From contig CAJWHN010000001.1 in assembly GCA_913041085.1 (NCBI GenBank), forward strand, positions 10,992 to 74,991: a stretch of 64,000 bases of DNA. Direction: 5' to 3'. Positions 11,518 to 62,568 of the stretch are shown here, one piece after another. This DNA comes from an uncultured Flavobacteriales bacterium. GTDB taxonomy: Bacteria > Bacteroidota > Bacteroidia > Flavobacteriales > UBA7312. Made by a program: the position numbers and the translations under genes. Each line of letters starts with the position of its first letter. The stretch's first letter is position 1. A model generated the notes under the pieces. It did not search any database. It was not told the DNA's origin and saw only the letters and a program-made list of their open reading frames with translations.

Positions 11518-12909
11518 ATGTCTAAGTCGGTAATTTGTATAGTTTTATTCAGTGTCTTTATCACTTTTTTTGCTGAAGCTCAGCAGGATACAATTATTGA
11601 CAACAAACCTTATGCTATACATGTGGTACAGCCTAGAGAAACGCTGTACGGCATTTCGAGACAATACGATGCAGAGTTAAATGATTTGGTAATATCTAAT
11701 CCAGCAGTAATTCAAGGTTTGCATGTTGGCTTTAAATTATTAGTTCCTTTACGTCATACTATAGTAAGACCTGTTGATAATAACACAATATCACAGTCAA
11801 CAAAGTCTGTCACTTCGGATACTCTTTCCAAAAAAATCAAAAATGATTCGGATTTTCGGATTTCAACTCTTCCAAGCTATGAGCTAGATACTACAAAAAT
11901 TAAAGTGGCTTTATTGTTGCCGTTTTATTTGGATTTTAACGATTCTCTAAAAGTTAATAATAACAACAAGAATCTTATTTATCCCAAGTCCAAAGTAGCC
12001 TTAGATTTTTATTTTGGCTTTCAACTAGCTATTGATAGTTTAACTGAATTGGGATACAACATTGACTTGATGGTATTAGATGTGCCAAACGACTCTGTTT
12101 TTGAATCCATACTTACCTCTAACGTATTATATGATAGGGAATATATTTTTGGGCCAATTTATATTAGGCAGTTTGAAGAATTAGCCAAATTTTATGGGTA
12201 TGATACCGAAAAGAAACTCATTTCTCCTTTGTCTTATATGAGTGTAAAAAATAAGTATTTAAATATTTTTCAATCTGTTCCTTTGTCTTATGTTCAAATT
12301 GATGCTTTAATTGATTATCTTTTACATACCAATAATAGCGATGAATTAATATTACTTGGACAAGATAGAGAAGATGACCTTATTTCATATGCTAAAAAGA
12401 AATTGAGTTTGCAAATAATGAATAGGAGATGTCAAGTATTTACTTTTGATAAAAATCAATTGTCCGATAGGGATTTATTAAAAAGTAAATTAAAGTCTGA
12501 TAAAAATATTATGATTATCCCTTCCAATGACCGCTCGTTTGTGAGTAGGTTGCTACCTACTTTAGGAAGTATGGAGGATACCGTTTTTACCATTTATGGG
12601 CTTAATACATGGAATAGATTCGATAATTTAGATTATTATGATTTGGTGAATCTAAACGTTCATATGCCGTCAATCTTTATGAACGATAATAGTCAGTTTT
12701 ACTCAGATTTCGTTAATAATTATTACCAAAAGTATTTCTCTTATCCAGAAAAGTATGCTTATTCAGCTTATCAACAGTGTCTATACTTTTTATCTAGTGA
12801 ATTCAAAGGTCTTCTCGATTTCAAAACTTTTCCAAATACTTCTTTTCAGTCCAACACTAAATTCAACATTATTCGATTCGTCGATTTCGAGCGGCTTATA
12901 GTGCAATAG
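11518..12909 (+). CDS. LysM domain protein with periplasmic-binding-protein-like (LppC/PBP1) region
   Basis: Signal peptide ending AEA|Q; LysM motif HVVQPRETLYGISRQY; KVALLLPF...ALDFYFGFQLAIDSL; follows guaA as is common in Flavobacteria. Confidence 0.75.
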   Translation: MSKSVICIVLFSVFITFFAEAQQDTIIDNKPYAIHVVQPRETLYGISRQYDAELNDLVISNPAVIQGLHVGFKLLVPLRHTIVRPVDNNTISQSTKSVTSDTLSKKIKNDSDFRISTLPSYELDTTKIKVALLLPFYLDFNDSLKVNNNNKNLIYPKSKVALDFYFGFQLAIDSLTELGYNIDLMVLDVPNDSVFESILTSNVLYDREYIFGPIYIRQFEELAKFYGYDTEKKLISPLSYMSVKNKYLNIFQSVPLSYVQIDALIDYLLHTNNSDELILLGQDREDDLISYAKKKLSLQIMNRRCQVFTFDKNQLSDRDLLKSKLKSDKNIMIIPSNDRSFVSRLLPTLGSMEDTVFTIYGLNTWNRFDNLDYYDLVNLNVHMPSIFMNDNSQFYSDFVNNYYQKYFSYPEKYAYSAYQQCLYFLSSEFKGLLDFKTFPNTSFQSNTKFNIIRFVDFERLIVQ

Positions 12910-12984: not shown

Positions 12985-15900
12985 TTGAGGTATTTAATTT
13001 TAATTGCTTTATTTTTTAGTATTTCTTTTTCAAAGGCTCAAGTATTTACAGGAGCTGGTGGTAATATTCCTGATGCTACATTTTTTGGTCCATCTGCATG
13101 GACTAACTTTTATCTCAATGTAAATTCTATTGGTACAATTGATTGTGATTTAACGGTATGCATAAATATTTCACATAATTATACAGATGATTTAGATATT
13201 AGATTAGTTTCTCCATCTGGAACTATTGTTTATTTATCAACTGATAATGGAGGTTCAGGAAACAATTATGTAGGAACTTGTTTTACTATGGATGCTACTA
13301 CTAATATAACTGCAGGAATTGCACCATTTACTGGAGATTATTTACCTGAGGGTAATTTATCAGCTCTTAATGGTCAAAATGCAAACGGATTATGGCGCTT
13401 ACAAATACGAGATGATGCTTGGTTATTTTCAGGGTCACTAAACTCGTGGTCAATAGATTTTACTTGTGAAGCTGAATGTGAAGAAGGAGAAGAAGTTTAC
13501 ACTCTCAATTTATTTGATTCTTTTGGTGATGGTTGGGATCATGGTACAGGACATTTAGTAACTATTAATGGAGTAGATTATGGTGGATTTGATTTTACTA
13601 CAGGATACTCATTTTCTTATACGATTTGTTTAGATCCAACAGATTGTATAGATTTTTCATTTACAGACGGTGGTCCTTGGGAATATGAATGTTCTTACAG
13701 TCTTGTCAATAACACTGGCGTAACTATTTTTTCTGGAGATCACCAAACAATTGATCAAACTATTGGAGATTGTGCCGTTGCTGGCTGTACAGATTCTGAG
13801 GCTTGTAATTTTGACCCTGACGCTGAAGATGATGATGGTAGTTGTTTTTACTCACCTTTGACAGTCGATGATTGCGAGGTTGTATACTGCGGTTCTGAAG
13901 TAGGTGAACAAGTAGCTAGCCAATATATAGGTACTAATGTCAACTACCTTACAATTGAAATTACGGAAAGTGGTATTATTAATGAGTTGTTTTATGATAT
14001 CAACTGGCATAGTCATGGATGGGGTAATATAAATTTTAACGTAAATAATGCAACAATTGCACTATATGACAATTTTGGTACATTTGTTCAAAATATTGCA
14101 GTAATTGGAAATAATTTGAGTATTTCTACTTATCAGAACTTCACAAATATACTAAATACAAACATTGATGTGTATGCTGGATATTCAATTCAAGTATTTT
14201 TAAATAGTCCTAATTGGGGTGGTGGAACTTGGGAATCTTATGTTAATGAAGCTAATATTTCTTTTACTGTCATTACAGAATCAGTTGATGCAGGAAATGA
14301 TATTCAGGGATACTCACTTTGCTATGATGATCCTCCAATAAATTTATTTAATTTTTTAGGAAATAACGCTAATCAAAATGGTATTTGGTCGCCAACTCTT
14401 TCCGGAGGTTATCTTGGTACATTTGATCCACAAACTAATGAAAGTAATGATTACATCTATACTGTTACTGGCGAATGTTTGACAGATTTTGCTACTATCC
14501 CTATAACCGTAATAGATATAGCAGCTCCTCAAATTACTTCAAGCGAAGATTTTATTTGTTTTGGATCTTCTTCATTAGTTACTTATTCCGTTCCTGCTAA
14601 TCAAGGCTCAAATTATTCATGGTCTGTGAACGGAGGCAACATAGTAGGTTCTTCAACAACTAGTTCTATACAGGTTGATTGGTCAGCAACTCCAGTAAGT
14701 ACAATTTCAAACGCCGTAGTAATAACAGAAACTTTTAATGGCTGTAGTAACAGTTCTTCCATAGATGCTACTATTTGTGCTAACCCTATACCTGCATTAA
14801 GTATTGATAATACTGAAATTTGTTTGGGAGAGTCTATTACTGTAACAGTCAACCAAACTTATAACAATTATGTTTGGACTCCTGCCGAATTACTAAACTC
14901 CAATGTTTACACTCCAAACTCATCTTCAGATAATGAAATATCTGTTACTATTACTGGTGAAGAGGGGTGCTCAACAACCGAGTCTATTGACTTAACAATT
15001 TATGAGAGTCCAATAGTGAATCTCTCTGCTGAAGTTTCTGAAATATGCTTTACTGATTCATTGACGCTTACTTCAAACCCGGGCTATAACGATTATTCAT
15101 GGACACCAGCAACTATAACAGGAAACTCAGATGTCTATTATCCTTCTAATTCATCAGAAGATATGATTTTTCTTACTGTTACTGGAGAGGGTGGATGTAC
15201 AAGTTCTGATTCGCTTGAAATAGTTGTAAATGATTTACCTGTTGTCAACCTAACCATTGACAATTCAGAAATATGTTTAGGTGAATCCCTAATTGTTAAT
15301 ACTAATTCTGGGTATAACAATTACGATTGGACACCTTCAGCAATATCTTCAAATTCATACACCTATGTGCCTACTTCTTTGACAGACAATCAAATTTCTG
15401 TAATAGTTACCTCAGACTTTGGTTGTTCATCTACAGAAACTATTGATTTTACGATTTATGATTTGCCAAGTGTTAACCTATCAATTGATGATACGGATAT
15501 ATGTATCGGAGAGTCTTTAGTGGTGAGTGCTAATTCAGGCTATAACAATTACGTATGGACACCCTCAAGTATTTCTGGCTACACAGATGTCTATTTTCCA
15601 ACCTCATCATCTGAAGATATGATTTCTATAACTGTTACAGGAGAAGGTGGTTGTACAAGTTCTGATTCGTTAGCAATACAAGTTTTTGATTTACCTGTAG
15701 TAAACTTAGGTGTCGATAATTCAGAAATCTGTATTGGAGAAACAATAAGTTTAAACACTAACCCTGGTTACATAAATTATGACTGGTCGCCTTCAACTAT
15801 ATCCTCTAATTCCGATACGTATACCCCTACATCTTTAACAGATAATCAAATCTCAGTGACGATTACGGGAGATGGTGGCTGTATTTCATCAGATAATTTA

Positions 15901-17895
15901 AATTTAACGATTTATGATTTACCTATTGTAAATCTATCAATTGATGATAACTATCTGTGTATGGGTGATTCACTTGTGGTTAGTTCTAATTCGGGCTATG
16001 ACAACTACGCATGGACACCCTCAAGTATTTCAGGAAACACGGATGTCTATTTTCCAACTTCATCATCAATTGATATGATTTCTTTAACTGTAACAGGAGA
16101 TGGTGGTTGTACAACTTCTGATTCGTTAGCAATACAAGTTTTTGATTTACCTATTGTAAACTTAGATGTCGATAATTCAGAAATCTGTATTGGAGAAACA
16201 ATAAGCCTAAACACTAACTCAGGATATATTAACTACGACTGGTTGCCTTCAAGCATATCTTCTAATTCAGATACCTACACTCCCACATCTTTATTAGATA
16301 ATCAATTTTCAGTAACGATTACAGCGGATGGTGGTTGTACTTCTTCGGACTCTTTAGAGCTTACAATTTTTGATTTACCTATTGTTGAAGTTTCACTCTC
16401 TGAAAGTGTGATTTGTTTAGGTGAGTCTATAGCTGTTAATTCCACATCCGGATATGTGAATTACGATTGGACACCAGCTATTTTAAATTCTACAAATCAG
16501 ATAACACCTGAATTAACAGAAACTAATTATTTGGTAGAAGTAACGGATATAAACGGTTGTAAATCTACTGATGATGCCAACCTTGTAATTAATCAGTCAA
16601 CACCAATTGAATTAACAGTTAATGGAAATAACACTACTACAATATGTATTGGAGAAGAAATAGACTTAGTTGCTTCTTTAGGTTTTGATTCATATACATG
16701 GTCAATTCCTAATGTATTATCCAACCAAACTACTTATGTGCCTTCTGACCTAAGTGATAATCAATTCTCAGTAATAGGTACTAACCAATTTGGCTGTAAT
16801 TCAACGTCTGCCTTGAATATTACTATCAACAGTATTCCAACACCAAGTTTAATATCGGTATTTTCTGATAGTGCACAGACAATCCCTCAAAGTATAAACC
16901 TTTGTGCAGGTGTTTCAGATATTAAATTTTCATCTAATATTAGTAGTCCTACTAATCCTGTAGAATGGGTTTTTGTTGATGGTAATGGCGCCATAATAGA
17001 AAATGGTCAAAATACTTCAGAATTGGCAGTTTCATTTCCTATTGTTGAAGATTATATTTTAGAATTCAGAGAGTATGGTTCTCAAAATTGCTTTACTCCT
17101 CAACAAATTGAAATAAAAGTAAATCCTAACCCTGTTCTTGACGTTAGCTATGTTGAAGATTGTTACAAGGACTCTGTATTTTTTACTAATAACTCAAGTG
17201 TTGATACAACGATTCAGAGCGTCTTATGGTCAGTAGATGGCTATAGTTTTAATAGTTACAACTTATCCTATCCACTAGATAATGACAGTAAAGTTTTTGA
17301 GCTTAGCATTGTTGATGTATTAAATTGTTCTTCTTCATTATCCACAAACTTTGTTCCTTCAGATCGTCCTTATGTTGATTTTTATCATGAGCCAGAGAAG
17401 ATTACAATTTTAAACCCTGAGGTTTCTTTCATAAACCTATCTTCGAATGACGATACTATTTTGTGGGATTTTGGTGATAATCAAACTTCAGATGAATGGG
17501 AACCAATTCATACATACGATTCGTTGGGTTGGTTTGAAGTTATTTTGAAAGTTCAAAATAATGAAGGTTGTGCTGATTCTATTGCTAAACAATTACTAGT
17601 TGAAAATAACCTCATATATTATTTCCCAAGTTCATTTACACCAGATGGTGATGGATTAAATGACGAATTTGGAGTGAGTGGATTTAGAATTGATAAAATT
17701 CAAAATTACCAATTCCAAATTACCAACAGATGGGGTGAAATTGTCTTTTATTCTGAGGATGTTAACGCAAAATGGGATGGTAAAACATCTCAAGGTAATG
17801 ACGCTATGCCTGGTAGTTACCTTTGGTCAGTTCGTGTAGTTGATGAACTAGGAAAGGTGACTAGAAAATTTGGAGATTTCACTTTGTTGAGGTAG
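12985..17895 (+). CDS. Large T9SS type-B (CHU_C/gliding-motility CTD) surface protein, adhesin-like (gene A): P-domain, DSxGDGW domain, GCTD repeat, about 9 Ig/PKD-like repeats, PKD, CTD
   Basis: TTG start; signal peptide SKA|Q; proprotein-convertase P-like domain (HNYTDDLDIRLVSPSGT...NGLWRLQIRD); C-terminal FPSSFTPDGDGLNDEF...NRWGEIVF...WDG...GDFTLLR. Confidence 0.88.
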   Translation: MRYLILIALFFSISFSKAQVFTGAGGNIPDATFFGPSAWTNFYLNVNSIGTIDCDLTVCINISHNYTDDLDIRLVSPSGTIVYLSTDNGGSGNNYVGTCFTMDATTNITAGIAPFTGDYLPEGNLSALNGQNANGLWRLQIRDDAWLFSGSLNSWSIDFTCEAECEEGEEVYTLNLFDSFGDGWDHGTGHLVTINGVDYGGFDFTTGYSFSYTICLDPTDCIDFSFTDGGPWEYECSYSLVNNTGVTIFSGDHQTIDQTIGDCAVAGCTDSEACNFDPDAEDDDGSCFYSPLTVDDCEVVYCGSEVGEQVASQYIGTNVNYLTIEITESGIINELFYDINWHSHGWGNINFNVNNATIALYDNFGTFVQNIAVIGNNLSISTYQNFTNILNTNIDVYAGYSIQVFLNSPNWGGGTWESYVNEANISFTVITESVDAGNDIQGYSLCYDDPPINLFNFLGNNANQNGIWSPTLSGGYLGTFDPQTNESNDYIYTVTGECLTDFATIPITVIDIAAPQITSSEDFICFGSSSLVTYSVPANQGSNYSWSVNGGNIVGSSTTSSIQVDWSATPVSTISNAVVITETFNGCSNSSSIDATICANPIPALSIDNTEICLGESITVTVNQTYNNYVWTPAELLNSNVYTPNSSSDNEISVTITGEEGCSTTESIDLTIYESPIVNLSAEVSEICFTDSLTLTSNPGYNDYSWTPATITGNSDVYYPSNSSEDMIFLTVTGEGGCTSSDSLEIVVNDLPVVNLTIDNSEICLGESLIVNTNSGYNNYDWTPSAISSNSYTYVPTSLTDNQISVIVTSDFGCSSTETIDFTIYDLPSVNLSIDDTDICIGESLVVSANSGYNNYVWTPSSISGYTDVYFPTSSSEDMISITVTGEGGCTSSDSLAIQVFDLPVVNLGVDNSEICIGETISLNTNPGYINYDWSPSTISSNSDTYTPTSLTDNQISVTITGDGGCISSDNLNLTIYDLPIVNLSIDDNYLCMGDSLVVSSNSGYDNYAWTPSSISGNTDVYFPTSSSIDMISLTVTGDGGCTTSDSLAIQVFDLPIVNLDVDNSEICIGETISLNTNSGYINYDWLPSSISSNSDTYTPTSLLDNQFSVTITADGGCTSSDSLELTIFDLPIVEVSLSESVICLGESIAVNSTSGYVNYDWTPAILNSTNQITPELTETNYLVEVTDINGCKSTDDANLVINQSTPIELTVNGNNTTTICIGEEIDLVASLGFDSYTWSIPNVLSNQTTYVPSDLSDNQFSVIGTNQFGCNSTSALNITINSIPTPSLISVFSDSAQTIPQSINLCAGVSDIKFSSNISSPTNPVEWVFVDGNGAIIENGQNTSELAVSFPIVEDYILEFREYGSQNCFTPQQIEIKVNPNPVLDVSYVEDCYKDSVFFTNNSSVDTTIQSVLWSVDGYSFNSYNLSYPLDNDSKVFELSIVDVLNCSSSLSTNFVPSDRPYVDFYHEPEKITILNPEVSFINLSSNDDTILWDFGDNQTSDEWEPIHTYDSLGWFEVILKVQNNEGCADSIAKQLLVENNLIYYFPSSFTPDGDGLNDEFGVSGFRIDKIQNYQFQITNRWGEIVFYSEDVNAKWDGKTSQGNDAMPGSYLWSVRVVDELGKVTRKFGDFTLLR
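15010..16377 (+). repeat. Intragenic tandem repeat: 6 x 228 nt (76 aa), alternating types giving 3 x 456 nt
   Basis: Units start at Pro codons 15010, 15238, 15466, 15694, 15922 and 16150, with the next domain at 16378; the string tctgattcgttagcaatacaagtttttgatttacct recurs at 15661 and 16117 (456 nt apart). Confidence 0.95.
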
Positions 17896-17988: not shown

Positions 17989-19293
17989 TTGAGATATTTA
18001 TTTGCCATATCTATTCTTTGCTTACACATACATTCTTATGCTCAATGTGTGGTAGATGAATCTTATTCTTTAAATCCTGAGGGCCCCTATCAAATTGGTG
18101 ATGTTGTTACTGTGAATTATACTTTGAATAGTTTCTATCAATTAAATACCAATTGGGTTATAGCTTTTCAAATTAATTTAGGTAATGGGTGGACTAATCT
18201 AAATCCAACATCTGCACCAATAAATACCAATATTAACAATGCTTTAGGTAACGGGTATTGGATTTGGGATTTAGAAAATACTTTTCCTAGTGGATTAGAA
18301 TTTGGACCAGGATTTAGATTTATAAACACTAGTTGGGATGACTATTGGTGGCTTCAAGGAAGTCCAAATTGGGGATCGTCTTCAACAGGACCATTATCAT
18401 TTTCCTTTGATGTTACAGTTAATGAATCTTGTACACCTGAGGATCTTTATATTAGTATAAATGTATATGGAGATTGTCAAACTGGTGGTTGGAATAACGG
18501 AGATTGTTGTAGCGATACAGCTCTAGTAAACTATGATGATTCACTTTTTGTTTATTCAAATTTAAATTCAGGATTAGATACTTCGGTGATTTATTGCCAA
18601 GAATCTGGTAACTTCAACCTATTCGATTTATTAGGTGATAATGTGCAAAACGATGGCTTTTGGACTCCGTCACTCGCTCAAGGTTATTTAGGTCAATTTA
18701 ATCCATCGATTAATACGCCACAAGAGTATATTTATACTGTATCGGATGAATGTAATACGGACTCAACTAGCGTTTTCTTAAGTTTAGATAACACAGAAAG
18801 TCAACCAACAGTTGAATTACAATTGTGTGATAACGATACAATTGTAAGTTTATACAACGCTCTAAATCTGAATAATACTTCAGGTATATGGCAAGGAACT
18901 TCTAGTTTAAGTTCTGGCTATCAAGGCTTTTTTAACCCTCAAGAACAACAGATAGGTTTATACACTTATACTGTCTTAAATGAGAATGATTGCCAACAAA
19001 GTTACCCATTGGATGTTTCAATAATTGAAGAAAATATTAATGCTGGAAGCGATTATGAGCTTGAAATATGTATTGATGATCCTGGTGTTAACTTTTATGA
19101 ATTAATCGGTAATCCAGATATAAATGGTATATGGTCACCTTCTTTGAACTCAGGCTATTTTGGTTTTTTTGATCCGTCAGCAAACCTTTCAGGAGATTAT
19201 ACGTACACCCTTTCAGGGGAATGTGATACGTACCAATCTCAAGTTAATGTAAATGTCATTGAAGTTATACCACCACCAATTGTTACGAACTAA
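17989..19293 (+). CDS. Secreted protein (gene B): unique Trp/Gly-rich N-terminal domain plus 3 Ig-like repeats (GxW.P.L..GY.G.F.P); no T9SS CTD
   Basis: TTG start MRYLF (gene A starts MRYLI); signal peptide SYA|Q; third repeat aligns with gene A GIWSPTLSGGYLGTFDP; ends VIEVIPPPIVTN. Confidence 0.82.
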   Translation: MRYLFAISILCLHIHSYAQCVVDESYSLNPEGPYQIGDVVTVNYTLNSFYQLNTNWVIAFQINLGNGWTNLNPTSAPINTNINNALGNGYWIWDLENTFPSGLEFGPGFRFINTSWDDYWWLQGSPNWGSSSTGPLSFSFDVTVNESCTPEDLYISINVYGDCQTGGWNNGDCCSDTALVNYDDSLFVYSNLNSGLDTSVIYCQESGNFNLFDLLGDNVQNDGFWTPSLAQGYLGQFNPSINTPQEYIYTVSDECNTDSTSVFLSLDNTESQPTVELQLCDNDTIVSLYNALNLNNTSGIWQGTSSLSSGYQGFFNPQEQQIGLYTYTVLNENDCQQSYPLDVSIIEENINAGSDYELEICIDDPGVNFYELIGNPDINGIWSPSLNSGYFGFFDPSANLSGDYTYTLSGECDTYQSQVNVNVIEVIPPPIVTN

Positions 19294-19325
19294 AAATTAA
19301 AACTACTTAACTAAACTATTTCATT

Positions 19326-20357
19326 ATGAAAAATTGTATAAATATTCTATTAACTGCTTTTATATCATTAACGGTTTCAATGGCTACTTATGCTCAAATT
19401 GACACCTTATGCCTTGGTTCTACTCTAGAAAATTATTCTATTATACCTAACGCAGGTTCTACCTACTCTTGGAGTGTTTCAGGAGGTGGAATCATAATAG
19501 GCTCTAATACTGGTACTTCTATTCAAGTAGATTGGTCTAATGCGCCTTTAGGCTTAATAAATAATGCTATTACATTGACCGAACAACTTAACGGTTGTGA
19601 AGCTGATCAGACTTTAAGTGTAGAAATTTTAGAAAACCCTACACCTAATTTATCTGCTTCAGATTTGTCCATTTGTTTAGGTGAATCAGTATTGTTATCT
19701 GCTGATGCTGGTTATGATACATACAATTGGACTCCTTCATCACTATCTGGTGCTTCATCTACATACACTCCAAATGCTATTACTGATGATACTTTTGAGG
19801 TTGAGGTCATTGGTGAAGGAGGCTGTTCTACAACAGAGAGTATTGAAATAGAAATTTTTGAACTTCCATCAGTTGAGGTTTCACTTTCTGATAGTACCAT
19901 TTGTTTAGGAGAGTCTATCACAGTTAGTGCAACCTCAGGCTTTACTACTTATACTTGGACTAATTCATCACTTTCTAGTGATCAAACTACTTTAACGCCT
20001 ACTTTGGTCGACACTGAATATAGCGTAAGCATTACCGATGTTAATGGCTGTGAAGCGTCAGATGATGTTACTCTAACAATTAATGAAATTAACCCTATTG
20101 AGCTATTAGTTAATGGGGCTGAAACCACTACTATCTGTTTAGGGGAAACTATCTCTCTTGATGCTACTGATGGATTTAGTTCGTATGTATGGGTTCCTGC
20201 TGTGGTAATTGGTGATAATGGTAACTATGTTCCTCAAAATACTTCTGAAACATCATACACAGTGACATCAACTGATTCAGAGGGTTGTCAATCTGTTGAT
20301 ACTATTAACATTACTATCAATAATTTACCTAATCCAGGCCCAATTATTTTTAACTAA
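19326..20357 (+). CDS. Secreted protein (gene C): 4 PKD/Ig-like domains paralogous to the stalk of gene A; no T9SS CTD
   Basis: Signal peptide TYA|Q; YSWSVSGGGIIIGS...SIQVDWS matches A YSWSVNGGNIVGS...SIQVDWS; ICLGES repeats; ends NITINNLPNPGPIIFN. Confidence 0.85.
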   Translation: MKNCINILLTAFISLTVSMATYAQIDTLCLGSTLENYSIIPNAGSTYSWSVSGGGIIIGSNTGTSIQVDWSNAPLGLINNAITLTEQLNGCEADQTLSVEILENPTPNLSASDLSICLGESVLLSADAGYDTYNWTPSSLSGASSTYTPNAITDDTFEVEVIGEGGCSTTESIEIEIFELPSVEVSLSDSTICLGESITVSATSGFTTYTWTNSSLSSDQTTLTPTLVDTEYSVSITDVNGCEASDDVTLTINEINPIELLVNGAETTTICLGETISLDATDGFSSYVWVPAVVIGDNGNYVPQNTSETSYTVTSTDSEGCQSVDTINITINNLPNPGPIIFN

Positions 20358-20362
20358 TCAGA

Positions 20363-21424
20363 ATGCATAGAGTACTTATACTTTTCTTTTTAAAGTTAAG
20401 TGTTCTAGGATATTGTCAAAATCTTCAAATCTGTCTTAGCGATAGCCTAGAATACTTTTCTGTTGTACCGAGCTCATCAACAAATTCGCTTGAATGGGAG
20501 TTTGTTTATGGAGATGGTGCAGAAATTGTCGATGGGCAATTTTCGGATAGTATAAGTGTTCTTTTTTCCAACCCTGGAGATTATATTTTACAATTGCGAG
20601 AGTTCGGCTCAACCAATTGTTTTACATCAGTAGAAATGAATATTTCGGTAAACCCTAATCCTTTAGCTAGTTTTTTTAGTGATGAGATTTGTATTTACGA
20701 TTCTGTTAAATTTATCAATACTTCTATTTCTAGTGATGGTTTACAATCTTCTATTTGGCGTATTGGTGATGATATAATCGATGCTATTGATTTGAATTAT
20801 ACCTTTAATGAGGAAGGCGAGTACCTTATAGAATTGTCTGTTGTCAGTAATTTAGGATGTTCTGATATGGAGTCTTTGTTCTTTAAGCTTTCTGATAAAC
20901 CAATTGCTGATTTTTATCATTTTCCTGAGAAAATCACTACGCTAAACCCTATAGTTGAATTTGTGAATTTATCAACAGAGGGTTTTGTTAATTGGGATTT
21001 TGGTGATGACTTTTACTCTAATGAATGGCAACCAATTCATTATTTTGATTTAGCAGCTTGGTACGATGTGCAATTGACCTTAGAAGATGAAAACGGTTGC
21101 ACAGACTCTATTACGAAGAGTTTATTAGTTGAAAGTGAGCTTATTTTTTACTTGCCTACATCTTTTACCCCAGATGGAGATGGCATAAACGATGATTTTG
21201 GCATAAAAGGATTCAATATCGATAGGGTGCAAGAGTTTTCTATGGTTATAACTAATAGATGGGGCGAAATTATATTTAATGTAGATGATATTAATCAAAG
21301 GTGGAATGGCGAGAACCAAGTTGGAAATTTAGCAATGCCAGGCACTTATTTATGGTCTGTTCGTATTAAAGATGAATTAGGTAAGCAGACTAGGCAAATA
21401 GGAGAAGTTACTCTGTTGAGGTAA
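20363..21424 (+). CDS. T9SS type-B CTD protein with PKD domains (gene D), paralog of the C-terminal roughly 350 aa of gene A
   Basis: Signal peptide GYC|Q; WDFGDD PKD motif; LPTSFTPDGDGINDDFG...NRWGEIIF...GEVTLLR. Confidence 0.88.
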   Translation: MHRVLILFFLKLSVLGYCQNLQICLSDSLEYFSVVPSSSTNSLEWEFVYGDGAEIVDGQFSDSISVLFSNPGDYILQLREFGSTNCFTSVEMNISVNPNPLASFFSDEICIYDSVKFINTSISSDGLQSSIWRIGDDIIDAIDLNYTFNEEGEYLIELSVVSNLGCSDMESLFFKLSDKPIADFYHFPEKITTLNPIVEFVNLSTEGFVNWDFGDDFYSNEWQPIHYFDLAAWYDVQLTLEDENGCTDSITKSLLVESELIFYLPTSFTPDGDGINDDFGIKGFNIDRVQEFSMVITNRWGEIIFNVDDINQRWNGENQVGNLAMPGTYLWSVRIKDELGKQTRQIGEVTLLR

Positions 21425-31786: not shown

Positions 31787-33673
31787 ATGAAAAACCTCCT
31801 TATTCTTTTATTATTTACCCCTTTTGTGCTATTATCACAGAATACCCCAAAAGCCAAAAAAGCCTATGCCAAAGCTGTAGAGTTTTATCAAGAGAGTAAC
31901 GATAAAAAAGCCAAAGAATTGGTTCAGTCGGCTATACGACAAGATGCCAACTATTTACCTTCCTATTTGCTGTTGGGTCAGCTCGAGGAAGAAGGTGGTA
32001 ATATAGAATCGGCAATTGATAATTACTTAAAAGGTATTTCAGATAATAATCCCGATAATGCTTGGGGTTATTGGAAAGTAGGCATGTTATACATGCAAAT
32101 ACCAAACTATGTAGAAGCTCAACGAGCGTTCAATCATTTTTTAAGCTTTAAATATCAAAAATCAAAAAAAATAGAGTCTGCCAGAAAAGAACTCAAAAAT
32201 TGCGAATTTTCTATTGATGCTATAGCTAACCCTAAGCCTTTTGACTTTAAGAATATGGGCGATGGTATCAATAGTGAATGGGAAGAGTATTTACCTAGTG
32301 TTTCTGCCGATGGCAAGTTATTCGTTATTACTAGGAGAGGTCCACATCAAAACAATGTTGTTTCAGAAGATTTTTATCAGAGTGAATATCTAAACGGTAA
32401 GTGGACAAAAGCTCAAAATATGGGGGCATCGGTCAATACAATGGGTAATGAAGGAGCTCAGTGTTTAGCACCTAATGGAAAGCTTTTGTTTTTTACTGCT
32501 TGTGACCGTGACGATGGCTTAGGTCGTTGTGATATATATATCAGTATAAAGAGAAATGGACAATGGTCAGAAGCTAGAAATATAGGACCTACTATCAACA
32601 GTAAATATTGGGAATCACAGCCTACCATTTCACCTGATGGTAGAGAACTTTATTTTGTGAGCAACAGACCAGGAGGCTATGGCGATATGGATATATGGAA
32701 AAGTGTACTTTCTGAGCAAGGCACCTTTTCTACACCTGTCAATTTGGGGTCTACTATCAACACCCCATACGATGAAATGTCACCCTTTATACATACCGAT
32801 AACCATACCTTATATTTTGCCTCTAATGGACACCCCGGTTTAGGCGATTTTGATTTGTTTTTAAGTCGTAGAGATTATCCTGTCGCTAGTTGGCAAAACC
32901 CCATTAACTTAGGTTATCCTATCAATACACTAGGTGTAGAGAATAGTCTTATTGTAGCTTCAGACGGCAAAACAGCATACTTCGCATCTGATAAATCGGG
33001 TTACGGTCAAGAAGACATTTTCTGGTTTCATCTACCTCAAGAAATGCAATCTCAACAAGTAGCTTATCTCAATACTAAGGTTTATGATGCCGAAACCAAA
33101 ACACCTATGAAATCAAGTATTGAAATCATTGACTTAGCTACTGGCAAAGTGATGATATCGTCATTTACATATACCAAGACGGGAGAATTTTTTACTTGCT
33201 TACCAGCCAACACCAATTATGCCGTTAATGTTTCTAAAGACGGTTATTTGTTTCATTCGGAAAATTTTGTCTTAAATGAGCAAAGTGCATTACAAGCACT
33301 GAAGTTAGATATACCATTGCAACGACTCAATAAAGGAAGTAAGATTGTATTGAATAATATTTTCTTTGATACCGATGCTTACACGCTAAAAACCGAATCT
33401 GAGGTAGAACTCAATACCTTAGTTAATTTTATGAATAATAATGCGAGTCTTGAAGTAGAGATAGAAGGACACACCGATAATGTAGGTTCAGAATCGCATA
33501 ACCTTAAACTTTCAGAAAGCAGAGCCAAAGCCGTTTATGATTTTCTAGTAGAAAATGGCATAAGTGCCAACAGAATGACTTTCAAAGGCTTTGGAGCAAG
33601 TCAGCCCATTGCTACTAACGAAACAGACGAGGGTAGAGCTACCAACAGAAGAACGGCTTTTAGGGTGAAGTGA
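31787..33673 (+). CDS. OmpA-family protein with TPR, PD40/WD40 propeller and carboxypeptidase-regulatory-like domains (PorE-like architecture)
   Basis: Signal peptide LLS|Q; PD40 repeats (ESQPTISPDGRELYFVSNR); OmpA-C motifs IEGHTDNVG...LSESRA...NRR. Confidence 0.88.
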   Translation: MKNLLILLLFTPFVLLSQNTPKAKKAYAKAVEFYQESNDKKAKELVQSAIRQDANYLPSYLLLGQLEEEGGNIESAIDNYLKGISDNNPDNAWGYWKVGMLYMQIPNYVEAQRAFNHFLSFKYQKSKKIESARKELKNCEFSIDAIANPKPFDFKNMGDGINSEWEEYLPSVSADGKLFVITRRGPHQNNVVSEDFYQSEYLNGKWTKAQNMGASVNTMGNEGAQCLAPNGKLLFFTACDRDDGLGRCDIYISIKRNGQWSEARNIGPTINSKYWESQPTISPDGRELYFVSNRPGGYGDMDIWKSVLSEQGTFSTPVNLGSTINTPYDEMSPFIHTDNHTLYFASNGHPGLGDFDLFLSRRDYPVASWQNPINLGYPINTLGVENSLIVASDGKTAYFASDKSGYGQEDIFWFHLPQEMQSQQVAYLNTKVYDAETKTPMKSSIEIIDLATGKVMISSFTYTKTGEFFTCLPANTNYAVNVSKDGYLFHSENFVLNEQSALQALKLDIPLQRLNKGSKIVLNNIFFDTDAYTLKTESEVELNTLVNFMNNNASLEVEIEGHTDNVGSESHNLKLSESRAKAVYDFLVENGISANRMTFKGFGASQPIATNETDEGRATNRRTAFRVK

Positions 33674-34524: not shown

Positions 34525-35694
34525 TTATTTACTGCTCGAAAATACTCTTTTTATACCAATACCTATATGAAGACCATAGCTTACAGATGGAATACCAGCA
34601 TTAAACTGTTTGGTGTAAATGTGGAAATGGGTTTTTTCTCCACCATAAAGGTAGCTGAATTGAAAACCATTATGCTCAACACCTCCAATATGATAGCCTA
34701 ATGCCAAACGATGGTTTTTCATTTTTTTATGAACTTCTAAAGTCAGTTTTGGAACATCATAAAGGTTCATTCGGTGTTCAATGGATAGGGAGTAGCCTTG
34801 AATTATTGAATTGTATAAAGCCTGATTTATACATAGTCTAAAGATAGTAGGAAGTTGCCAAGTATAGCTTTCCTTTATATTACTTTGTAAATCCGATTGT
34901 AGGCTATCTATTTCATTTCTGATGATGCTATCGCTAAAGCTGATAAAGTCATTAACATTGATTCCTTCAAATTCATACTGACTTTCAATATGCATATTAC
35001 TAGTCTTATCGTTCCATCTAATAAATCCTAAATCACTTATTGACAATTCTATTTCTCCATTATTAATACTGTCTTTATAGCTCATCCCAAAAACTGCGCC
35101 ATAACCCTTGTTCCCAAAAGGTTTTTGTAATAAATCTGTTGTGTCTGTGAAGTGAGCTTCATAATCCACTTGATAATTAATGAAAGCAGCTTGAGGGTGG
35201 GTGTAAAAACGAGCTTCATTGACAGTAGCATCTAGAAAATGATGTCCCAAAAGTAGCCCTACACTCGTTTGTATTTTTTTACTCCATTGATATGAAAAGT
35301 CTAGTTGTGAGTAGTTAAAAGCAGTAATATCTAATGGATCTAGTTTAAGGTTTTCACCCTTGAATGGAGTGTTTCCCAACAGGCTCAATTCGACTAATGA
35401 TTTTGAGTAGGTGGCGTATGCTCCTGTATGGTTAGATAAACTCAGTCCCCAACCTTTTTTATTTTGATAAAGAATAGCGTTATTACTTTCAAAGGCAATA
35501 TTATTTTCTGCTTTTAAAGCGTCTATGATATTGCTCTTTTCAACCTCATCTAAAAAGCCATAGGACTGTGACAGTAATTGGGCGTTTATGCTACTGTTAA
35601 ACAAACCAATATCTGTATTAAACTCTAATGAGCTTTCTTGCGAATAGGCCGATAAAGTAAGAGCCACTAAGAAAATCGAAAAATACTTTGGCAT
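34525..35694 (-). CDS. Predicted outer-membrane beta-barrel, DUF5723-like (minus strand)
   Basis: CAT at 35692-35694; signal peptide AYS|Q; amphipathic strands; GYGAVFGMSY...SISDLGFIRW motif recalled as typical of DUF5723; TAATG overlap with the upstream lipoprotein gene. Confidence 0.7.
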   Translation of the reverse strand: MPKYFSIFLVALTLSAYSQESSLEFNTDIGLFNSSINAQLLSQSYGFLDEVEKSNIIDALKAENNIAFESNNAILYQNKKGWGLSLSNHTGAYATYSKSLVELSLLGNTPFKGENLKLDPLDITAFNYSQLDFSYQWSKKIQTSVGLLLGHHFLDATVNEARFYTHPQAAFINYQVDYEAHFTDTTDLLQKPFGNKGYGAVFGMSYKDSINNGEIELSISDLGFIRWNDKTSNMHIESQYEFEGINVNDFISFSDSIIRNEIDSLQSDLQSNIKESYTWQLPTIFRLCINQALYNSIIQGYSLSIEHRMNLYDVPKLTLEVHKKMKNHRLALGYHIGGVEHNGFQFSYLYGGEKTHFHIYTKQFNAGIPSVSYGLHIGIGIKRVFSSSK

Positions 35695-39066: not shown

Positions 39067-40188
39067 TTATTGAATTAGAATTTTTCCGACTTCTTCATTT
39101 GTCTTAAGTAAATAAAAGCCTTTTTTAAGATATGGTAGTTCAAAAGAAAAATTATTTTTCAATTCTTTTTCAAAAACTATCTGCCCTTGCATAGTGTATA
39201 AGACCACACTTTCTGTTGGATTAACTGTGATTGTCTCACCATTCATAATAGGATTAGGGTAGAATAGGCTAGATTGCAATTCCACATCATCAATCCCAGT
39301 AGCTTGGCAAACAGCCTCACAATCTTCAAGTGTAGCATAGTCGCCATCGGCACTACTCAGCTCAACACAACCTTCATCAACACACATATAAGTAGTAAGA
39401 GTAGTACCGAAGCCTACAAATACAACAGTATTATTGCCCGAGTTTGGTATGGCTAAAGTGTCCGTTGTTCTGTTGTAATATATATCGGCAGGGTTACTCA
39501 TGTTGGGAACAACTACCGTTGAACCGCCACTAAAGTCGCTGTTGAATTTACTAATCGCATTATTACTCCATGCCGAAACGTAAAAATCTCCGTTATTATC
39601 CATAGAAATACCATCGCAATTTCCTAGATTGGTATTAGCTACAGTGGTATAGCTAGAATCCGACATATCAATTTCATAAATGGGGGCATTATTTCCCCAG
39701 CATACTACTAACAGTCGGTCCTCTATATCGTCATAAAAAATACCGTTAGGTGTTTTAGGTAGGTTTTCGATATACATATTTAAGTTACCGCTAACTGTAT
39801 TGTAGCGATAGATATCTTTACCACTAAAATCCGTAACGAATACATCGTTGCCTTTATGGGTGATGCCATTTGCAAAAGATGCACCAAGGTTTACGTTTAC
39901 GGTTTGTTCTTCTGTAACAAGGTTATAGGCTTTTAGTCGACTACCACTACAAGCAAATAATTCTTCACCCACTACTTCTAGTCCGTGAGGGCCAGAGCCA
40001 ACACCTGAAGCGAAAATGTCCAATTCATCGTTAATGGCATCGTAAGAAAGTATTTGACCTTGACTAGAGTTAGACACTAAATAGCGTTGTCCATAACTAT
40101 CATAATCGACACTTTCAGGGCCATTATAGGATTGAGCGAAAAGACTTGAAAAGCCTAACAGTAAAGCGAAAGTGAATAGTTGTTTCAT
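39067..40188 (-). CDS. T9SS type-A cargo: SMP-30/gluconolactonase-like beta-propeller, 4-Cys module and CTD
   Basis: CAT at 40186-40188; signal peptide LFA|Q; propeller repeats GPHG, FANG, PNG, CDG, PAD; CTD FYPNP...KGFYLL...KILIQ. Confidence 0.78.
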   Translation of the reverse strand: MKQLFTFALLLGFSSLFAQSYNGPESVDYDSYGQRYLVSNSSQGQILSYDAINDELDIFASGVGSGPHGLEVVGEELFACSGSRLKAYNLVTEEQTVNVNLGASFANGITHKGNDVFVTDFSGKDIYRYNTVSGNLNMYIENLPKTPNGIFYDDIEDRLLVVCWGNNAPIYEIDMSDSSYTTVANTNLGNCDGISMDNNGDFYVSAWSNNAISKFNSDFSGGSTVVVPNMSNPADIYYNRTTDTLAIPNSGNNTVVFVGFGTTLTTYMCVDEGCVELSSADGDYATLEDCEAVCQATGIDDVELQSSLFYPNPIMNGETITVNPTESVVLYTMQGQIVFEKELKNNFSFELPYLKKGFYLLKTNEEVGKILIQ

Positions 40189-40190
40189 CC

Positions 40191-41717
40191 TTATTTAACG
40201 ATTAGTTTAGTATTGTTACCATTGTTAGATCTAAGGAAGTAAATACCACTTTCTAACAGACCTTGTATCAAAAGACTTCTTTCTTGTACTTTGTTAGAGT
40301 AAACGATTTGTCCTTGTAAATTAGAAATATTCAAATGGAAAGGGTTCTCGTAATTTTGGAAGTAAAGCACACCATCTTTAGCAATGGGGTTAGGGTAGAA
40401 GTTTATACTTTCTTTCTTATTTTCTTCAATGCTACTCACATCACAAGCGGCCTCACAATCTTCTAGCGTAGTGTATTCGCCACTAGCGTCCATTATTTCC
40501 TCGCAGCCATCAGTAGAACAATTGTATGAACTCTCAGCTACATAGTCGGCATTGTAAAGTTCAATAATTTCATTAGGACCTTGACTTGGCCAGTTGAAAC
40601 CATTTGTAGCAAGATAAATCTTACCGTCAGGGCTTACGCAAATATCTCTTAATCGTCCCCATTCATTATTGAAAAAGTCAGTCTCACCGATAATGTCGTC
40701 ACCAGAAGAGTTAAATTCAAAACGAACCAATTTCTTGTCTTTCAATACGGTCATCAGTAAAGTATTCTGAAACTCAGGGATAGAAGGGTGGTCGTACCAT
40801 ATAATATCTGAAGGCGCTATGGTAGAAGTACCACTACTCCACAAAGGCTCTATAACATTATATTCTTGGCAGTAATCACTTTCAGTAAAATTGCTTGATA
40901 AATCTTCAGCGTAGCTATAATCTACTGAAATGTTGTCACAAAAGCCTTGAACGTTAGGCCAGCCAAAGTTTCCATTAGCTTCTAAGATGTTTAATTCATC
41001 ATCATTACTAGGACCGTGTTCAGAGCTGTAAATAATACCGTTTGGTCCAAGGGCTAAACCCTGTGCATTTCTATGACCAATAGACCACACATAGCTGTAT
41101 GGACTTGGATTATCGGCTTTAGGCTGTCCGAAGTTGCCACCATTAGCATCGATATCTATACGGAGAGTTTTACCCGTTAGAGCTGTTTCATCTTGAGAAG
41201 CCATCCAATCTTGTGCATCACCAGTTGTGACTAATAAAGTGGTGTTGTCTATAGCTAAAAGTCGGCAACCAATATGTGTACTGTTACCATCTATACCATC
41301 TACCATTATGGTTTCATTGACAAGAGCATCATTATCAAAATCATATTCATAATACACAATTTTTTCACTAGCGCCACCAGCAGAATAATAGGTGTAAGCC
41401 ATAAATACATAGGGAGCGCCATTGTTGAAGTCAGGATGTATTTCCATACCTAATAGCCCCGATTCGTATTGATCGTACAACTGAGGGGCTAGGTTTAATA
41501 GAATATATTGTTCTCCAGTTTCTACATTTACTCGACTAACGATTCCTGAACGTTCGGTAACCCAAATATGGTCATCTGGCCCCCATTTTATTTCCCAAGG
41601 GACATCTAGTCCTCCTATAACTTCTCTTTCAGTAAGGATGGTGTTACCAACTTGAATTTGAGCAAAGGTGTTGCTAGCTAGTAGTGTGACAAATAATAGA
41701 ATTAGGTACTTTTTCAT
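40191..41717 (-). CDS. T9SS type-A cargo: PQQ-dependent glucose/sorbosone dehydrogenase family propeller, 4-Cys module and CTD
   Basis: CAT at 41715-41717; PWEI.WGPD, HIGCRL, GHRNAQGL, EHGP..DDELN...NFGWP, GRLRDI; CTD FYPNP...SGIYFL...KLIVK. Confidence 0.85.
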   Translation of the reverse strand: MKKYLILLFVTLLASNTFAQIQVGNTILTEREVIGGLDVPWEIKWGPDDHIWVTERSGIVSRVNVETGEQYILLNLAPQLYDQYESGLLGMEIHPDFNNGAPYVFMAYTYYSAGGASEKIVYYEYDFDNDALVNETIMVDGIDGNSTHIGCRLLAIDNTTLLVTTGDAQDWMASQDETALTGKTLRIDIDANGGNFGQPKADNPSPYSYVWSIGHRNAQGLALGPNGIIYSSEHGPSNDDELNILEANGNFGWPNVQGFCDNISVDYSYAEDLSSNFTESDYCQEYNVIEPLWSSGTSTIAPSDIIWYDHPSIPEFQNTLLMTVLKDKKLVRFEFNSSGDDIIGETDFFNNEWGRLRDICVSPDGKIYLATNGFNWPSQGPNEIIELYNADYVAESSYNCSTDGCEEIMDASGEYTTLEDCEAACDVSSIEENKKESINFYPNPIAKDGVLYFQNYENPFHLNISNLQGQIVYSNKVQERSLLIQGLLESGIYFLRSNNGNNTKLIVK

Positions 41718-46691: not shown

Positions 46692-46699
46692 ATAGAGAT

Positions 46700-61950: not shown

Positions 61951-62568
61951 ATGCAAGAATTAGCAAATATATTTATCAAGTCGATATTCATCGACAATAT
62001 GATATTCGCCTACTTTTTAGGAATGTGTTCCTATTTGGCAGTATCCAAAACAGTAAAAACATCAGTTGGTATGGGCTTTGCCGTCATCTTTGTATTAGGC
62101 TTTACCATACCTATCAACTATTTATTAGAAAATTTCATTTTGAAACAAGGGGCTTTGGTTTGGCTTAGCGAATCTTTCGTCGATGTAGACCTAGGCTTTT
62201 TGAGTTTTATTATGTTCATTGCTATCATTGCTTCTATGGTTCAATTAGTAGAGATGATTGTAGAGAAGTTTTCTCCAGCTTTATATGGCTCTTTAGGTAT
62301 TTTCCTGCCACTTATAGCAGTTAACTGTGCTATTTTGGGTGGTTCATTATTTATGCAAGAAAGAGCATACACCAGTATTGTAGAAGCTACAGTATTTGGT
62401 CTAGGGTCTGGAATTGGTTGGTTTTTAGCTATTGTAGCTATTGCCGCTATCCGTGAAAAAATACGTTATTCCCATGTACCTGCTCCATTAAGAGGTCTAG
62501 GTATCACCTTTATTATTACAGGTCTTATGGGTATTGCGTTTATGAGCTTTATGGGAATCAAATTATAA
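61951..62568 (+). CDS. nqrE: Na+-NQR subunit E
   Basis: [22 protein letters not shown]. Confidence 0.96.

What the first reader, a model, noticed from the sequence alone, without database searches (positions are those of the whole stretch)
19255..19420. Junction 1: B's C-terminal tail is the missing first strand of C's N-terminal domain (donor-strand hypothesis)
Seen: A reads VIDIAAPQITSS-EDFICFGSSSLVTYSV (about 14509-14590). B ends VIEVIPPPIVTN-stop (12 residues in register) and mature C begins QIDTLCLGSTLENYSI, so the two chains abut with almost no residues lost. Throughout A's repeats, the Pro-x-hydrophobic segment before xxICxGE opens each domain, so the cut appears to be inside a domain rather than in a linker. 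Known: chaperone-usher and Bacteroidota type V pili polymerise by beta-strand donation. Inference: B docks on C by C-terminal strand complementation in a PKD/Ig fold.
Basis: partly seen in the sequence, partly recalled or inferred. Interest (0 to 1): 0.8.

Follow-up and report, generated by a model that had tools for sequence, protein, structure and literature searches.

The report
Split surface adhesin with docking tails
A marine Flavobacteriales bacterium encodes a surface adhesin as three adjacent secreted proteins, and each upstream piece ends in a short conserved tail that matches the missing first strand of the next piece's opening domain, so the pieces probably snap together head to tail, although binding itself could not be tested here.

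Summary
B (17989-19293) ends VIEVIPPPIVTN-stop. Mature C (after TYA|Q24) starts QIDTLC. Together they match the contiguous A segment 509-536, with one residue extra rather than any lost.

By Pfam PKD_6 boundaries the cut lies inside a domain: A matches from profile position 5, C only from 13.

This is not a recent break. About 30 independent contigs of uncultured marine Flavobacteriales carry the same B-C-D triad, and some lineages lack A. Every B ends P-[PS]-x-I-Phi-x-[ND]-stop. Every acceptor starts Q-x4-C. Tail codons carry synonymous changes.

The C-D junction has the same design, and C's tail PNPGPIIFN is the most conserved stretch of C. B's tail is only moderately conserved.

AlphaFold2 leaves B's tail as a free coil. 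In the homologous A domain modelled alone, the equivalent segment is ordered (pLDDT 76) but forms only a 2-residue bridge. Only D carries a type IX secretion sorting domain.

This is not a chaperone-usher or type V pilus.

The parts
12985..17895 (+). Gene A: 1636-aa single-chain adhesin. It has a signal peptide, a P_proprotein domain, one PKD_6 domain, about 9 Ig_7 repeats, a PKD domain and a T9SS type B C-terminal sorting domain. It contains, contiguously, homologues of the end of B, all of C and all of D.
14509..14592 (+). A residues 509-536, VIDIAAPQITSS EDFICFGSSSLVTYSV: the contiguous counterpart of B's tail plus the mature N-terminus of C. The Pfam PKD_6 match starts at P515 (nt 14527).
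17989..19293 (+). Gene B: 434 aa. It has a signal peptide (SYA|Q19), an N-terminal beta-sandwich head with no Pfam match, three Ig-like repeats and no T9SS sorting domain.
19267..19290 (+). B C-terminal tail IPPPIVTN, the proposed donor. The family motif is P-[PS]-x-I-[VILF]-x-[ND]-COOH, with the invariant Ile at position -4. In the AlphaFold2 model of B it is coil.
19294..19325 (+). B-C intergenic spacer, 32 nt. C is in a different reading frame from B. No terminator-like site was found.
19326..19394 (+). C signal peptide, 23 codons, with cleavage TYA|Q24.
19395..19634 (+). C first domain, a PKD_6-like acceptor. It starts Q-I-D-T-L-C, 5 residues before the conserved Cys, at about PKD_6 profile position 10. 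It has no counterpart of A 511-519.
19326..20357 (+). Gene C: 343 aa, with one PKD_6 domain, three Ig_7 domains and no T9SS sorting domain.
20325..20354 (+). C C-terminal tail LPNPGPIIFN, the junction 2 donor. It is the most conserved 9-residue window of C.
20363..21424 (+). Gene D: 353 aa. It has a signal peptide (GYC|Q19), a PKD_6-like acceptor domain starting Q-N-L-Q-I-C, a PKD domain and a T9SS type B sorting domain (residues 264-352, nt 21152-21418).

Best explanation
B, C and D are three Sec-exported pieces of one T9SS surface adhesin. They reassemble head to tail.

Each upstream piece ends, just after the last strand of its final Ig-like domain, in a short Pro-rich tail with an invariant Ile four residues from the C-terminus. 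The next piece starts, straight after signal-peptide cleavage, with a PKD_6-type domain that lacks its short N-terminal A strand.

The tail is proposed to lie in that vacant edge position, exactly as the same segment does covalently in the single-chain paralogue A. Together with the ordinary domain-domain interface this would rebuild the inter-domain junction. The product would be a linear B-C-D fibre with B's novel beta-sandwich head at the tip.

Only D has a T9SS type B sorting domain, so B and C would depend on D for export and anchoring.

Shown: the homology, the cut position, the conservation, the free tail in the model of B, and the ordered equivalent segment in A.

Inferred: that tail and acceptor actually bind, where assembly takes place, and that the complex is exported.
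For: 1. Rosetta-stone homology. A carries B's end, C and D contiguously. A Winogradskyella fused protein has the same junction...VSVEDSAAPIVNDPNPQFCL....

2. Pfam PKD_6 matches A from profile position 5 but C from 13, L005 C from 13 and L005 D from 14. Appending the upstream tails extends the matches to positions 9 and 6, with small score gains of +0.9 and +1.6 bits.

3. The triad is conserved in all loci examined: 3 plus 4 GTDB MAGs, 4 contigs by exact look-up and 16 metagenome contigs. No B-C or C-D fusion was seen. The same stop position and the same mature start recur throughout, including lineages where B is 45%, C 52% and D 40% identical and A is absent, and a divergent triad in L015.

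4. Tail codons show synonymous changes with the amino acids kept.

5. C's tail is the most conserved 9-residue window of C: rank 1 of 312, entropy 0.17 against a mean of 0.97, and against 1.09-1.20 for the three internal, covalently linked junctions. In B's tail P409 and I412 are invariant and P410 is at least 90% conserved.

6. AlphaFold2 of B: the last strand ends at ...VNVNVI, and the tail is coil with lower pLDDT. AlphaFold2 of A 511-609: the N-terminal overhang has pLDDT 76 with a bridge at 518-519, while the C-terminal overhang is coil at pLDDT 50.

7. Only A and D reach the TIGR04131/CHU_C thresholds.

8. No terminator-like site lies between B, C and D, and the gaps are 32 and 5 nt.
Against:
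- The missing strand is only about 2 residues of beta-bridge in the model, and half of the tail is proline, so the tail alone may give little affinity.
- C's domain keeps 7 of its 8 modelled strands and probably folds alone.
- B's tail is only moderately conserved overall (rank 117 of 409), and its -2 position is freely variable.
- Exact abutment is a by-product of the mutational event, not of selection.
- The literature searches returned no paper describing T9SS export of a non-covalent complex or of cargo lacking a sorting domain.
- No PorP/SprF gene lies next to D, although type B cargo genes are usually clustered with one (PMC10202324).
Confidence: 0.5

Rival explanations
1. The tails are conserved for a reason other than docking onto the next protein. 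They could be a Pro-rich cap that protects the exposed edge of each protein's own last domain. They could also be a short C-terminal recognition motif for some export, chaperone or quality-control factor. In this reading B and C act as independent periplasmic or released proteins.
For: The tail is Pro-rich, as edge caps often are. The modelled A strand is very short. B's tail is only moderately conserved. B and C have no known route across the outer membrane.
Against: The tail is not packed on B's own domain in the model. It is homologous to a segment that belongs to the downstream domain by Pfam boundaries and by the A 511-609 model. The acceptor proteins all start at exactly the complementary residue. 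Gene order and adjacency are invariant.
Confidence: 0.25
2. Pilus-like polymer. C has both an acceptor domain and a donor tail. B has only a donor and D only an acceptor plus the sorting domain. C could therefore polymerise head to tail into a shaft of variable length, capped by B and anchored by D.
For: Donor and acceptor are distributed across B, C and D as in tip, shaft and anchor pilins. The two tails share P-x-P-I-Phi-x-N. The two acceptor domains are homologous and start in register (27% identity, Cys at position 5-6 in both). C's tail is the most conserved part of C.
Against: There is no evidence for C-C compatibility. The acceptor domains are only 27% identical. A, the single-chain relative, has a fixed length. 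No assembly machinery has been identified.
Confidence: 0.12
3. Decaying fragments. B, C and D are the remains of a broken copy of A, and the tail is a meaningless leftover.
For: A full-length paralogue, A, sits next door. B and C lack a sorting domain.
Against: Each piece has its own start codon and a well-formed signal peptide followed by Gln. The arrangement is conserved across about 30 contigs down to 40-50% identity, and in genomes without A. Substitution patterns indicate purifying selection.
Confidence: 0.03
4. One polypeptide made by recoding (frameshift or readthrough), or an assembly artefact.
For: None beyond the adjacency of the genes.
Against: The three genes are in three different frames. 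The 32-nt spacer contains stops. Signal peptides sit at each start. The same structure appears in many independent assemblies.
Confidence: 0.01

Closest known systems
Type V pili of Bacteroidota (FimA/Mfa1)
   Same: Same phylum and same polarity of complementation. In type V pili a C-terminal strand of one subunit fills the position of an absent N-terminal strand in an Ig-like domain of the next subunit. This description of type V pili rests on established knowledge; see PMC4789730 for Mfa4.
   Different: Type V pilins are lipoprotein precursors with a FimA/Mfa fold. Their N-terminal strand is removed by a protease, and they homopolymerise. Here the proteins have SPase I signals and PKD_6/Ig_7 domains. 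The strand is absent genetically, the order is a defined B-C-D, and the anchor is a T9SS sorting domain.
Chaperone-usher pili (donor-strand complementation and exchange)
   Same: An incomplete Ig-like fold is completed by a strand from the neighbouring subunit.
   Different: In chaperone-usher pili the missing strand is the C-terminal G strand, which leaves a deep groove. The donor is an N-terminal extension, and a PapD-like chaperone and an usher are required. None of these applies here, and the missing A strand is short and peripheral.
Single-chain T9SS type B adhesins: SprB-like proteins, GhpA grappling hook of Aureispira (PDB 9flp and related), and gene A in this window
   Same: Same Ig_7-type repeats (C against GhpA, E 3.6e-72). 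Same Sec signal plus type B sorting-domain logic. Same overall domain order.
   Different: Those proteins are single polypeptides. Here the same architecture is encoded as three Sec-exported chains, of which only the last has the sorting domain.
Beta-strand augmentation by C-terminal peptides (for example PDZ ligands, or titin Z1Z2-telethonin)
   Same: A short terminal peptide with a fixed distance from a hydrophobic residue to the free C-terminus adds an edge strand to a beta-sheet.
   Different: Unrelated folds and cellular context. This is an analogy only.

Membership tests
Chaperone-usher pilus | The acceptor subunit lacks the C-terminal G strand of its Ig fold. | tested here: not met
   C lacks the N-terminal A segment. 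The homologous A domain model has a full final strand, E77-88.
Chaperone-usher pilus | PapD-like chaperone and usher genes are present in the locus. | tested here: not met
   Pfam scans of the window ORFs of 120 aa or more, apart from one 205-aa ORF (61951-62568) and a few short ORFs nested in other genes, show neither.
Type V pilus (FimA/Mfa) | Lipoprotein signal peptide with a lipobox Cys. | tested here: not met
   The signal peptides end TYA|Q, SYA|Q and GYC|Q, and orthologues end SFA|Q, SYS|Q and similar. There is no conserved lipobox.
Type V pilus (FimA/Mfa) | FimA/Mfa-type pilin fold or family. | tested here: not met
   Pfam gives PKD_6 and Ig_7 for C, PKD and CHU_C for D, and nothing for B. 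Foldseek gives generic Ig and PKD folds.
Type V pilus (FimA/Mfa) | A C-terminal donor strand occupies the position of an absent N-terminal strand of the next subunit. | tested here: inconclusive
   The polarity matches by homology to A, and the tail is free in the B model. Docking could not be computed.
T9SS type B sorting-domain cargo | C-terminal TIGR04131 / PF13585 domain above the curated threshold. | tested here: met
   D scores 41.3 bits and A 37.4 bits against a cut-off of 35. CHU_C scores are 56.8 and 52.1 bits against a cut-off of 27. B and C have none.
T9SS type B sorting-domain cargo | Adjacent cognate PorP/SprF-family gene (usual but not obligatory; PMC10202324). | tested here: not met
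   No PorP_SprF hit was found among the window ORFs scanned.
Pfam PKD_6 (PF19408) | Score above the gathering threshold, and the extent of the profile covered. | tested here: met
   C scores 37.3 bits against 25, but only profile positions 13-61. A covers positions 5-78. L005 D scores 26.8 bits over positions 14-80.
Pfam Ig_7 (PF19081) | Score above the gathering threshold. | tested here: met
   C scores 45.8 bits against 27.3.
GhpA-type grappling hook | Giant (about 5900 aa) heptameric T9SS fibre with adjacent PorP and PorE homologues. | tested here: not met
   Only the Ig-like repeats are shared. The proteins here are 343-1636 aa, and no PorP gene is adjacent. Oligomeric state cannot be tested with these tools.

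The most novel reading that the evidence does not exclude
B, C and D form a new kind of T9SS-anchored, self-assembling fibre built by C-terminal strand insertion. D is the exported anchor, with an acceptor domain only. C is a polymerisable shaft subunit, with both acceptor and donor. B is the tip adhesin, with a donor only. This would be a pilus-like assembly principle outside the chaperone-usher and type V systems. It would also be the first case of proteins lacking a sorting domain reaching the surface by riding on a T9SS substrate.
Probability: 0.12. Interest if true: 0.85.

Novelty: new variant of a known kind. Interest (0 to 1): 0.6.

Why it matters
T9SS substrates are thought to need their own C-terminal sorting domain. 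Here two conserved, Sec-exported pieces of an adhesin lack one and sit next to a piece that has it. If the tails do dock, three things would follow:

- T9SS can display non-covalent multi-chain fibres.
- Strand complementation has been reinvented in PKD/Ig-type adhesins by gene fission or fusion.
- There would be a natural, minimal peptide-and-domain pair, with a covalent control (A) in the same genome, for studying how split Ig domains reassemble.

If the tails do not dock, the most conserved nine residues of C still need an explanation.

Tried and rejected
No complex prediction was therefore possible.
- Foldseek of the A 511-609 model gave only generic Ig/PKD matches at E of 2e-3 or weaker. 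For B it gave only tandem-Ig arrays, so B's head domain remains unassigned.
- Appending the tails to C and D raised the Pfam PKD_6 scores by only 0.9 and 1.6 bits. This is consistent with the hypothesis but weak.
- A tree of D against the A C-termini gives three clades meeting at one node, so fission and fusion cannot be told apart.
- The promoter and terminator scan was uninformative: promoter-like sites were at the random level, and no terminator lies between the genes.
- Covariation between B's tail and C's N-terminus was not pursued. The only clear co-change (terminal N with QID, terminal D with QVD) follows the two clades and is phylogenetically confounded.
- Cys counts are odd in B (11) and D (5) and even in C (8). 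They give no clear case for an intermolecular disulfide.
- Literature searches for split T9SS adhesins, for cargo lacking a sorting domain and for hitch-hiking found nothing relevant.
- Recoding, artefact and pseudogene readings were rejected (see the rival explanations).
Full report
**What is in the window**

Four + strand genes lie between guaA plus a 463-aa secreted protein and a convergent lolA-ftsK pair.

- A (12985-17895, 1636 aa) is a single-chain adhesin. It has a signal peptide, a P_proprotein domain, one PKD_6 domain (residues 515-593), about nine Ig_7-type repeats, a PKD domain and a T9SS type B sorting domain (CHU_C 52.1 bits; TIGR04131 37.4 against a cut-off of 35).
- B (17989-19293, 434 aa) has no Pfam or NCBIfam match.
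- C (19326-20357, 343 aa) has PKD_6 (37.3 bits) and Ig_7 (45.8 bits).
- D (20363-21424, 353 aa) has PKD_4 and a type B sorting domain (CHU_C 56.8; TIGR04131 41.3).

Each protein starts with a hydrophobic signal peptide ending in a small residue followed by Gln: SKA|Q, SYA|Q, TYA|Q, GYC|Q. From my own knowledge, this is the usual pattern for SPase I substrates in Bacteroidota.

The genome uses T9SS. A plug protein gene lies at 56450-57835 (-), and two proteins with type A sorting domains lie at 39067-41717 (-).

**Checking the observation**

B ends VIEVIPPPIVTN-TAA (19255-19293). Mature C begins QIDTLCLGSTLENYSI at 19395. A 509-536 (nt 14509-14592) reads VIDIAAPQITSSEDFICFGSSSLVTYSV.

This is the edge of solid homology. 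B 341-433 aligns with A 425-519 (41%, E 1.4e-19). C 26-335 aligns with A 522-828 (E 4.5e-64), and C 90-340 also aligns with A 1041-1290 (46%). D 19-353 aligns with A 1302-1636 (49%, E 6e-103).

One correction is needed. With the conserved Cys aligned, C's Q24 sits on A's S520, the position also taken by B's last residue. B plus C is therefore one residue longer than A, rather than a perfect butt joint.

The Pro-x-hydrophobic segment does open each A repeat: 9 sites, mostly 76 aa apart. Pfam's own domain boundaries start there, with Ig_7 profile position 3 at C T106 and PKD_6 position 5 at A P515.

C's PKD_6 match starts only at profile position 13, so the mature N-terminus corresponds to about position 10. 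The same is true of the L005 orthologues of C (13) and D (14). By this independent yardstick the cut is inside a domain.

Exact abutment itself is what an insertion-type fission or a deletion-type fusion would leave behind. It is not evidence of function.

**The split is old and universal in this lineage**

B orthologues range from 257 to 596 aa, down to 42% identity, with different numbers of internal repeats. All come from uncultured marine Flavobacteriales. All end at the same position with P-[PS]-x-I-[VILF]-x-[ND]-stop.

C orthologues (339-350 aa, down to 48% identity) all start Q-[IV]-D-x-x-C after the signal peptide. One has two extra residues. All end [LIMV]-P-[NTS]-P-G-P-I-[ILN]-[FY]-N.

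B-C-D adjacency is the same in all of these:
- three GTDB MAGs that also have A;
- more divergent lineages that lack A, with B directly following the 474-aa neighbour;
- four further MAGs, one labelled Cryomorphaceae;
- 16 metagenome contigs.

No B-C or C-D fusion was seen.

A strongly divergent triad in MAG STO1_bin.450 (L015) keeps the same design with different sequences. B' ends SPSEIQQN-stop. C' starts QQTLVNC and ends PEPSGITPL-stop. D' starts QVFNVC and has CHU_C. There A' lies after the triad.

Two regularities hold over all four tail types. An Ile sits exactly four residues from the C-terminus, after a Pro-rich stretch. Every acceptor starts with Gln five residues before the conserved Cys; C' may have one more.

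**Selection on the tails**

Tail codons differ synonymously between lineages (CCA/CCT/CCG, ATT/ATA, GGC/GGT, AAC/AAT) while the residues stay the same.

In a 19-sequence alignment of C, PNPGPIIFN is the most conserved 9-residue window of the protein. It ranks 1 of 312, with entropy 0.17 against a mean of 0.97. The three internal, covalently linked junctions of C score 1.09-1.20. The free tail is therefore under much tighter constraint than the same structural element when it is tethered.

For B, the subject of this finding, the signal is weaker. P409 and I412 are invariant, P410 is at least 90% conserved and the terminal residue is N or D. The window as a whole ranks 117 of 409 (entropy 0.81 against 1.00), and the -2 position varies freely.

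**Structure predictions**

The first job modelled A 511-609, the PKD_6 domain with both overhangs and no neighbouring domains (24-row alignment, mean pLDDT 83.8).
- The N-terminal overhang 511-520 has mean pLDDT 76, with a beta-bridge at T518-S519.
- It is followed by strands at 523-525, 531-535, 543-548, 552-554, 561-565, 572-584 and 587-598.
- The C-terminal overhang 599-609, which is the next domain's opening segment, is coil at pLDDT 50.

The second job modelled mature B (20-row alignment, mean pLDDT 77.3). The last strand is ...TYQSQVNVNVI. EVIPPPIVTN is coil, and the last five residues have pLDDT 62 against about 85 for the domain.

Together these results say that the segment belongs to the downstream domain and dangles free when that domain is absent. 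They also say that the element is small, about two residues of bridge. C retains the A' strand (TLC) and every later strand. C's domain is thus nearly complete, unlike a chaperone-usher pilin, which lacks a core strand.

No coordinates are returned by the tool, so the pairing partner of the bridge is unknown.

**Relatives of known structure**

C's repeats match the Ig-like repeats of GhpA (E 3.6e-72). GhpA is the T9SS-secreted grappling-hook protein of Aureispira. It is a 5898-aa single chain that forms heptamers and is encoded next to PorP and PorE homologues (bioRxiv 10.1101/2024.01.29.577165).

The models give only generic Ig/PKD fold matches.

**Most likely mechanism**

B, C and D probably re-form an A-like fibre. 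B's tail would lie in the vacant A-strand position of C's first domain, and C's tail in that of D's first domain, which is also PKD_6-type and in register with C's (27% identity). Each junction would be helped by the ordinary inter-domain interface.

D alone has the type B sorting domain. According to the literature, such domains are usually not cleaved and anchor the protein through PorP/SprF-family proteins (PMC10202324, PMC9143113). B and C, which have no known way across the outer membrane, would therefore depend on D.

A head-to-tail complex would have the same cross-section as the single chain A. Whether it assembles in the periplasm and passes the SprA translocon is pure inference. I put 0.5 on tail docking: roughly 0.7 that the three proteins form a complex, times 0.75 that the tail takes the homologous position.

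**Rivals**

- The tails serve another purpose, such as an edge cap or a recognition motif, and B and C act alone (0.25).
- C polymerises as a shaft between tip B and anchor D (0.12). This is the most novel reading. The distribution of donors and acceptors (B donor only, C both, D acceptor only) is what a pilus would need.
- B, C and D are decaying fragments (0.03).
- Recoding or artefact (0.01).

The last two are contradicted by the conservation, the signal peptides and the three different reading frames.

**Direction of evolution**

A is missing from the lineages of L005 and L006. The tree of D against the A C-termini has three clades meeting at one node. Window D is closer to window A (48%) than to L005 D (40%).

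Fission of an A-like ancestor, fusion of a duplicated triad, and gene conversion all remain possible. Either way A acts as a Rosetta stone for the junction.

**Comparison with known systems**

The proposed mechanism works most like type V pili of the same phylum: a C-terminal donor fills the position of an absent N-terminal strand. It is not a member of that family. It has no lipoprotein signal, no FimA/Mfa fold, no protease step and no evidence of polymerisation.

It is not a chaperone-usher system either. The missing strand is the wrong one, the donor is at the wrong end, and there is no chaperone or usher.

A and D are ordinary T9SS type B cargo. B and C are not. The literature searches returned no description of a T9SS adhesin split in this way.

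**Verdict**

I rate it a new variant of a known kind if the docking is real, with interest 0.6. The strongest single fact, that C's tail is the most conserved stretch of C, belongs to junction 2. Junction 1 shares the design but shows weaker constraint.

Noticed in passing
window 20325-20416 (C tail, 5-nt gap, D signal peptide): Junction 2 has the same design as junction 1. C ends LPNPGPIIFN-stop and mature D starts QNLQIC. A has the contiguous IPTPSLISVF-SDSAQTIP-QSINLC, so eight A residues have no counterpart in C or D. C's tail is the most conserved window of C.
   Followed up: yes
L005, L006, L007, L012-L014 (no A) and L015 310-8400 (B' C' D' then A'): The single-chain gene A is absent from several lineages that keep B-C-D. 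In one MAG it lies after the triad instead of before it. In that MAG, B' carries at its N-terminus the YTLxLFDxxGDGW region that the window has in A rather than in B, so head domains have been exchanged between the A and B types.
   Followed up: partly
window 18046-18480 (B residues 20-165): B's N-terminal beta-sandwich head has no Pfam match. Its most conserved motifs are FGPGFRF and GDCQTGGWNNGDCC. The same head occurs on many proteins annotated with SprB repeats and a GEVED domain (P0030-P0080), so it is probably the binding tip. The following residues (mature 147-169) are predicted to be disordered.
   Followed up: partly
protein P0029 (377 aa): Another protein without a sorting domain has the B-type head followed by Ig_7 domains. 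It ends ...STITVPIVTFNPLSIWHN-stop, possibly a further tail-bearing member of a split system. Its genomic context was not examined.
   Followed up: no
window 31787-33673 (+), 45594-48748 (+), 34525-35694 (-): There are two PD40 + OmpA proteins, the second preceded by a TPR protein. TPR, WD40-like and OmpA_C domains are the domain types found in the T9SS protein PorE. A DUF5723 protein is also present. No PorP/SprF gene is present in the window, although type B cargo genes are usually clustered with one.
   Followed up: no
window 39067-41717 (-) and 56450-57835 (-): Two adjacent proteins carry type A T9SS sorting domains; one of them also has a glucose/sorbosone dehydrogenase domain. A T9SS plug protein gene is also present, confirming that the organism uses T9SS.
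   Followed up: no
B, C, D mature proteins: Mature B has 11 Cys and mature D has 5, both odd numbers. C has 8, paired one pair per domain. The unpaired Cys could be free or could form inter-chain bonds. GhpA has inter-domain disulfides.
   Followed up: no
window 11518-12909 (+): A 463-aa secreted protein with no Pfam or NCBIfam match directly precedes the adhesin genes. Its position is conserved in all related loci, including those without A.
   Followed up: no
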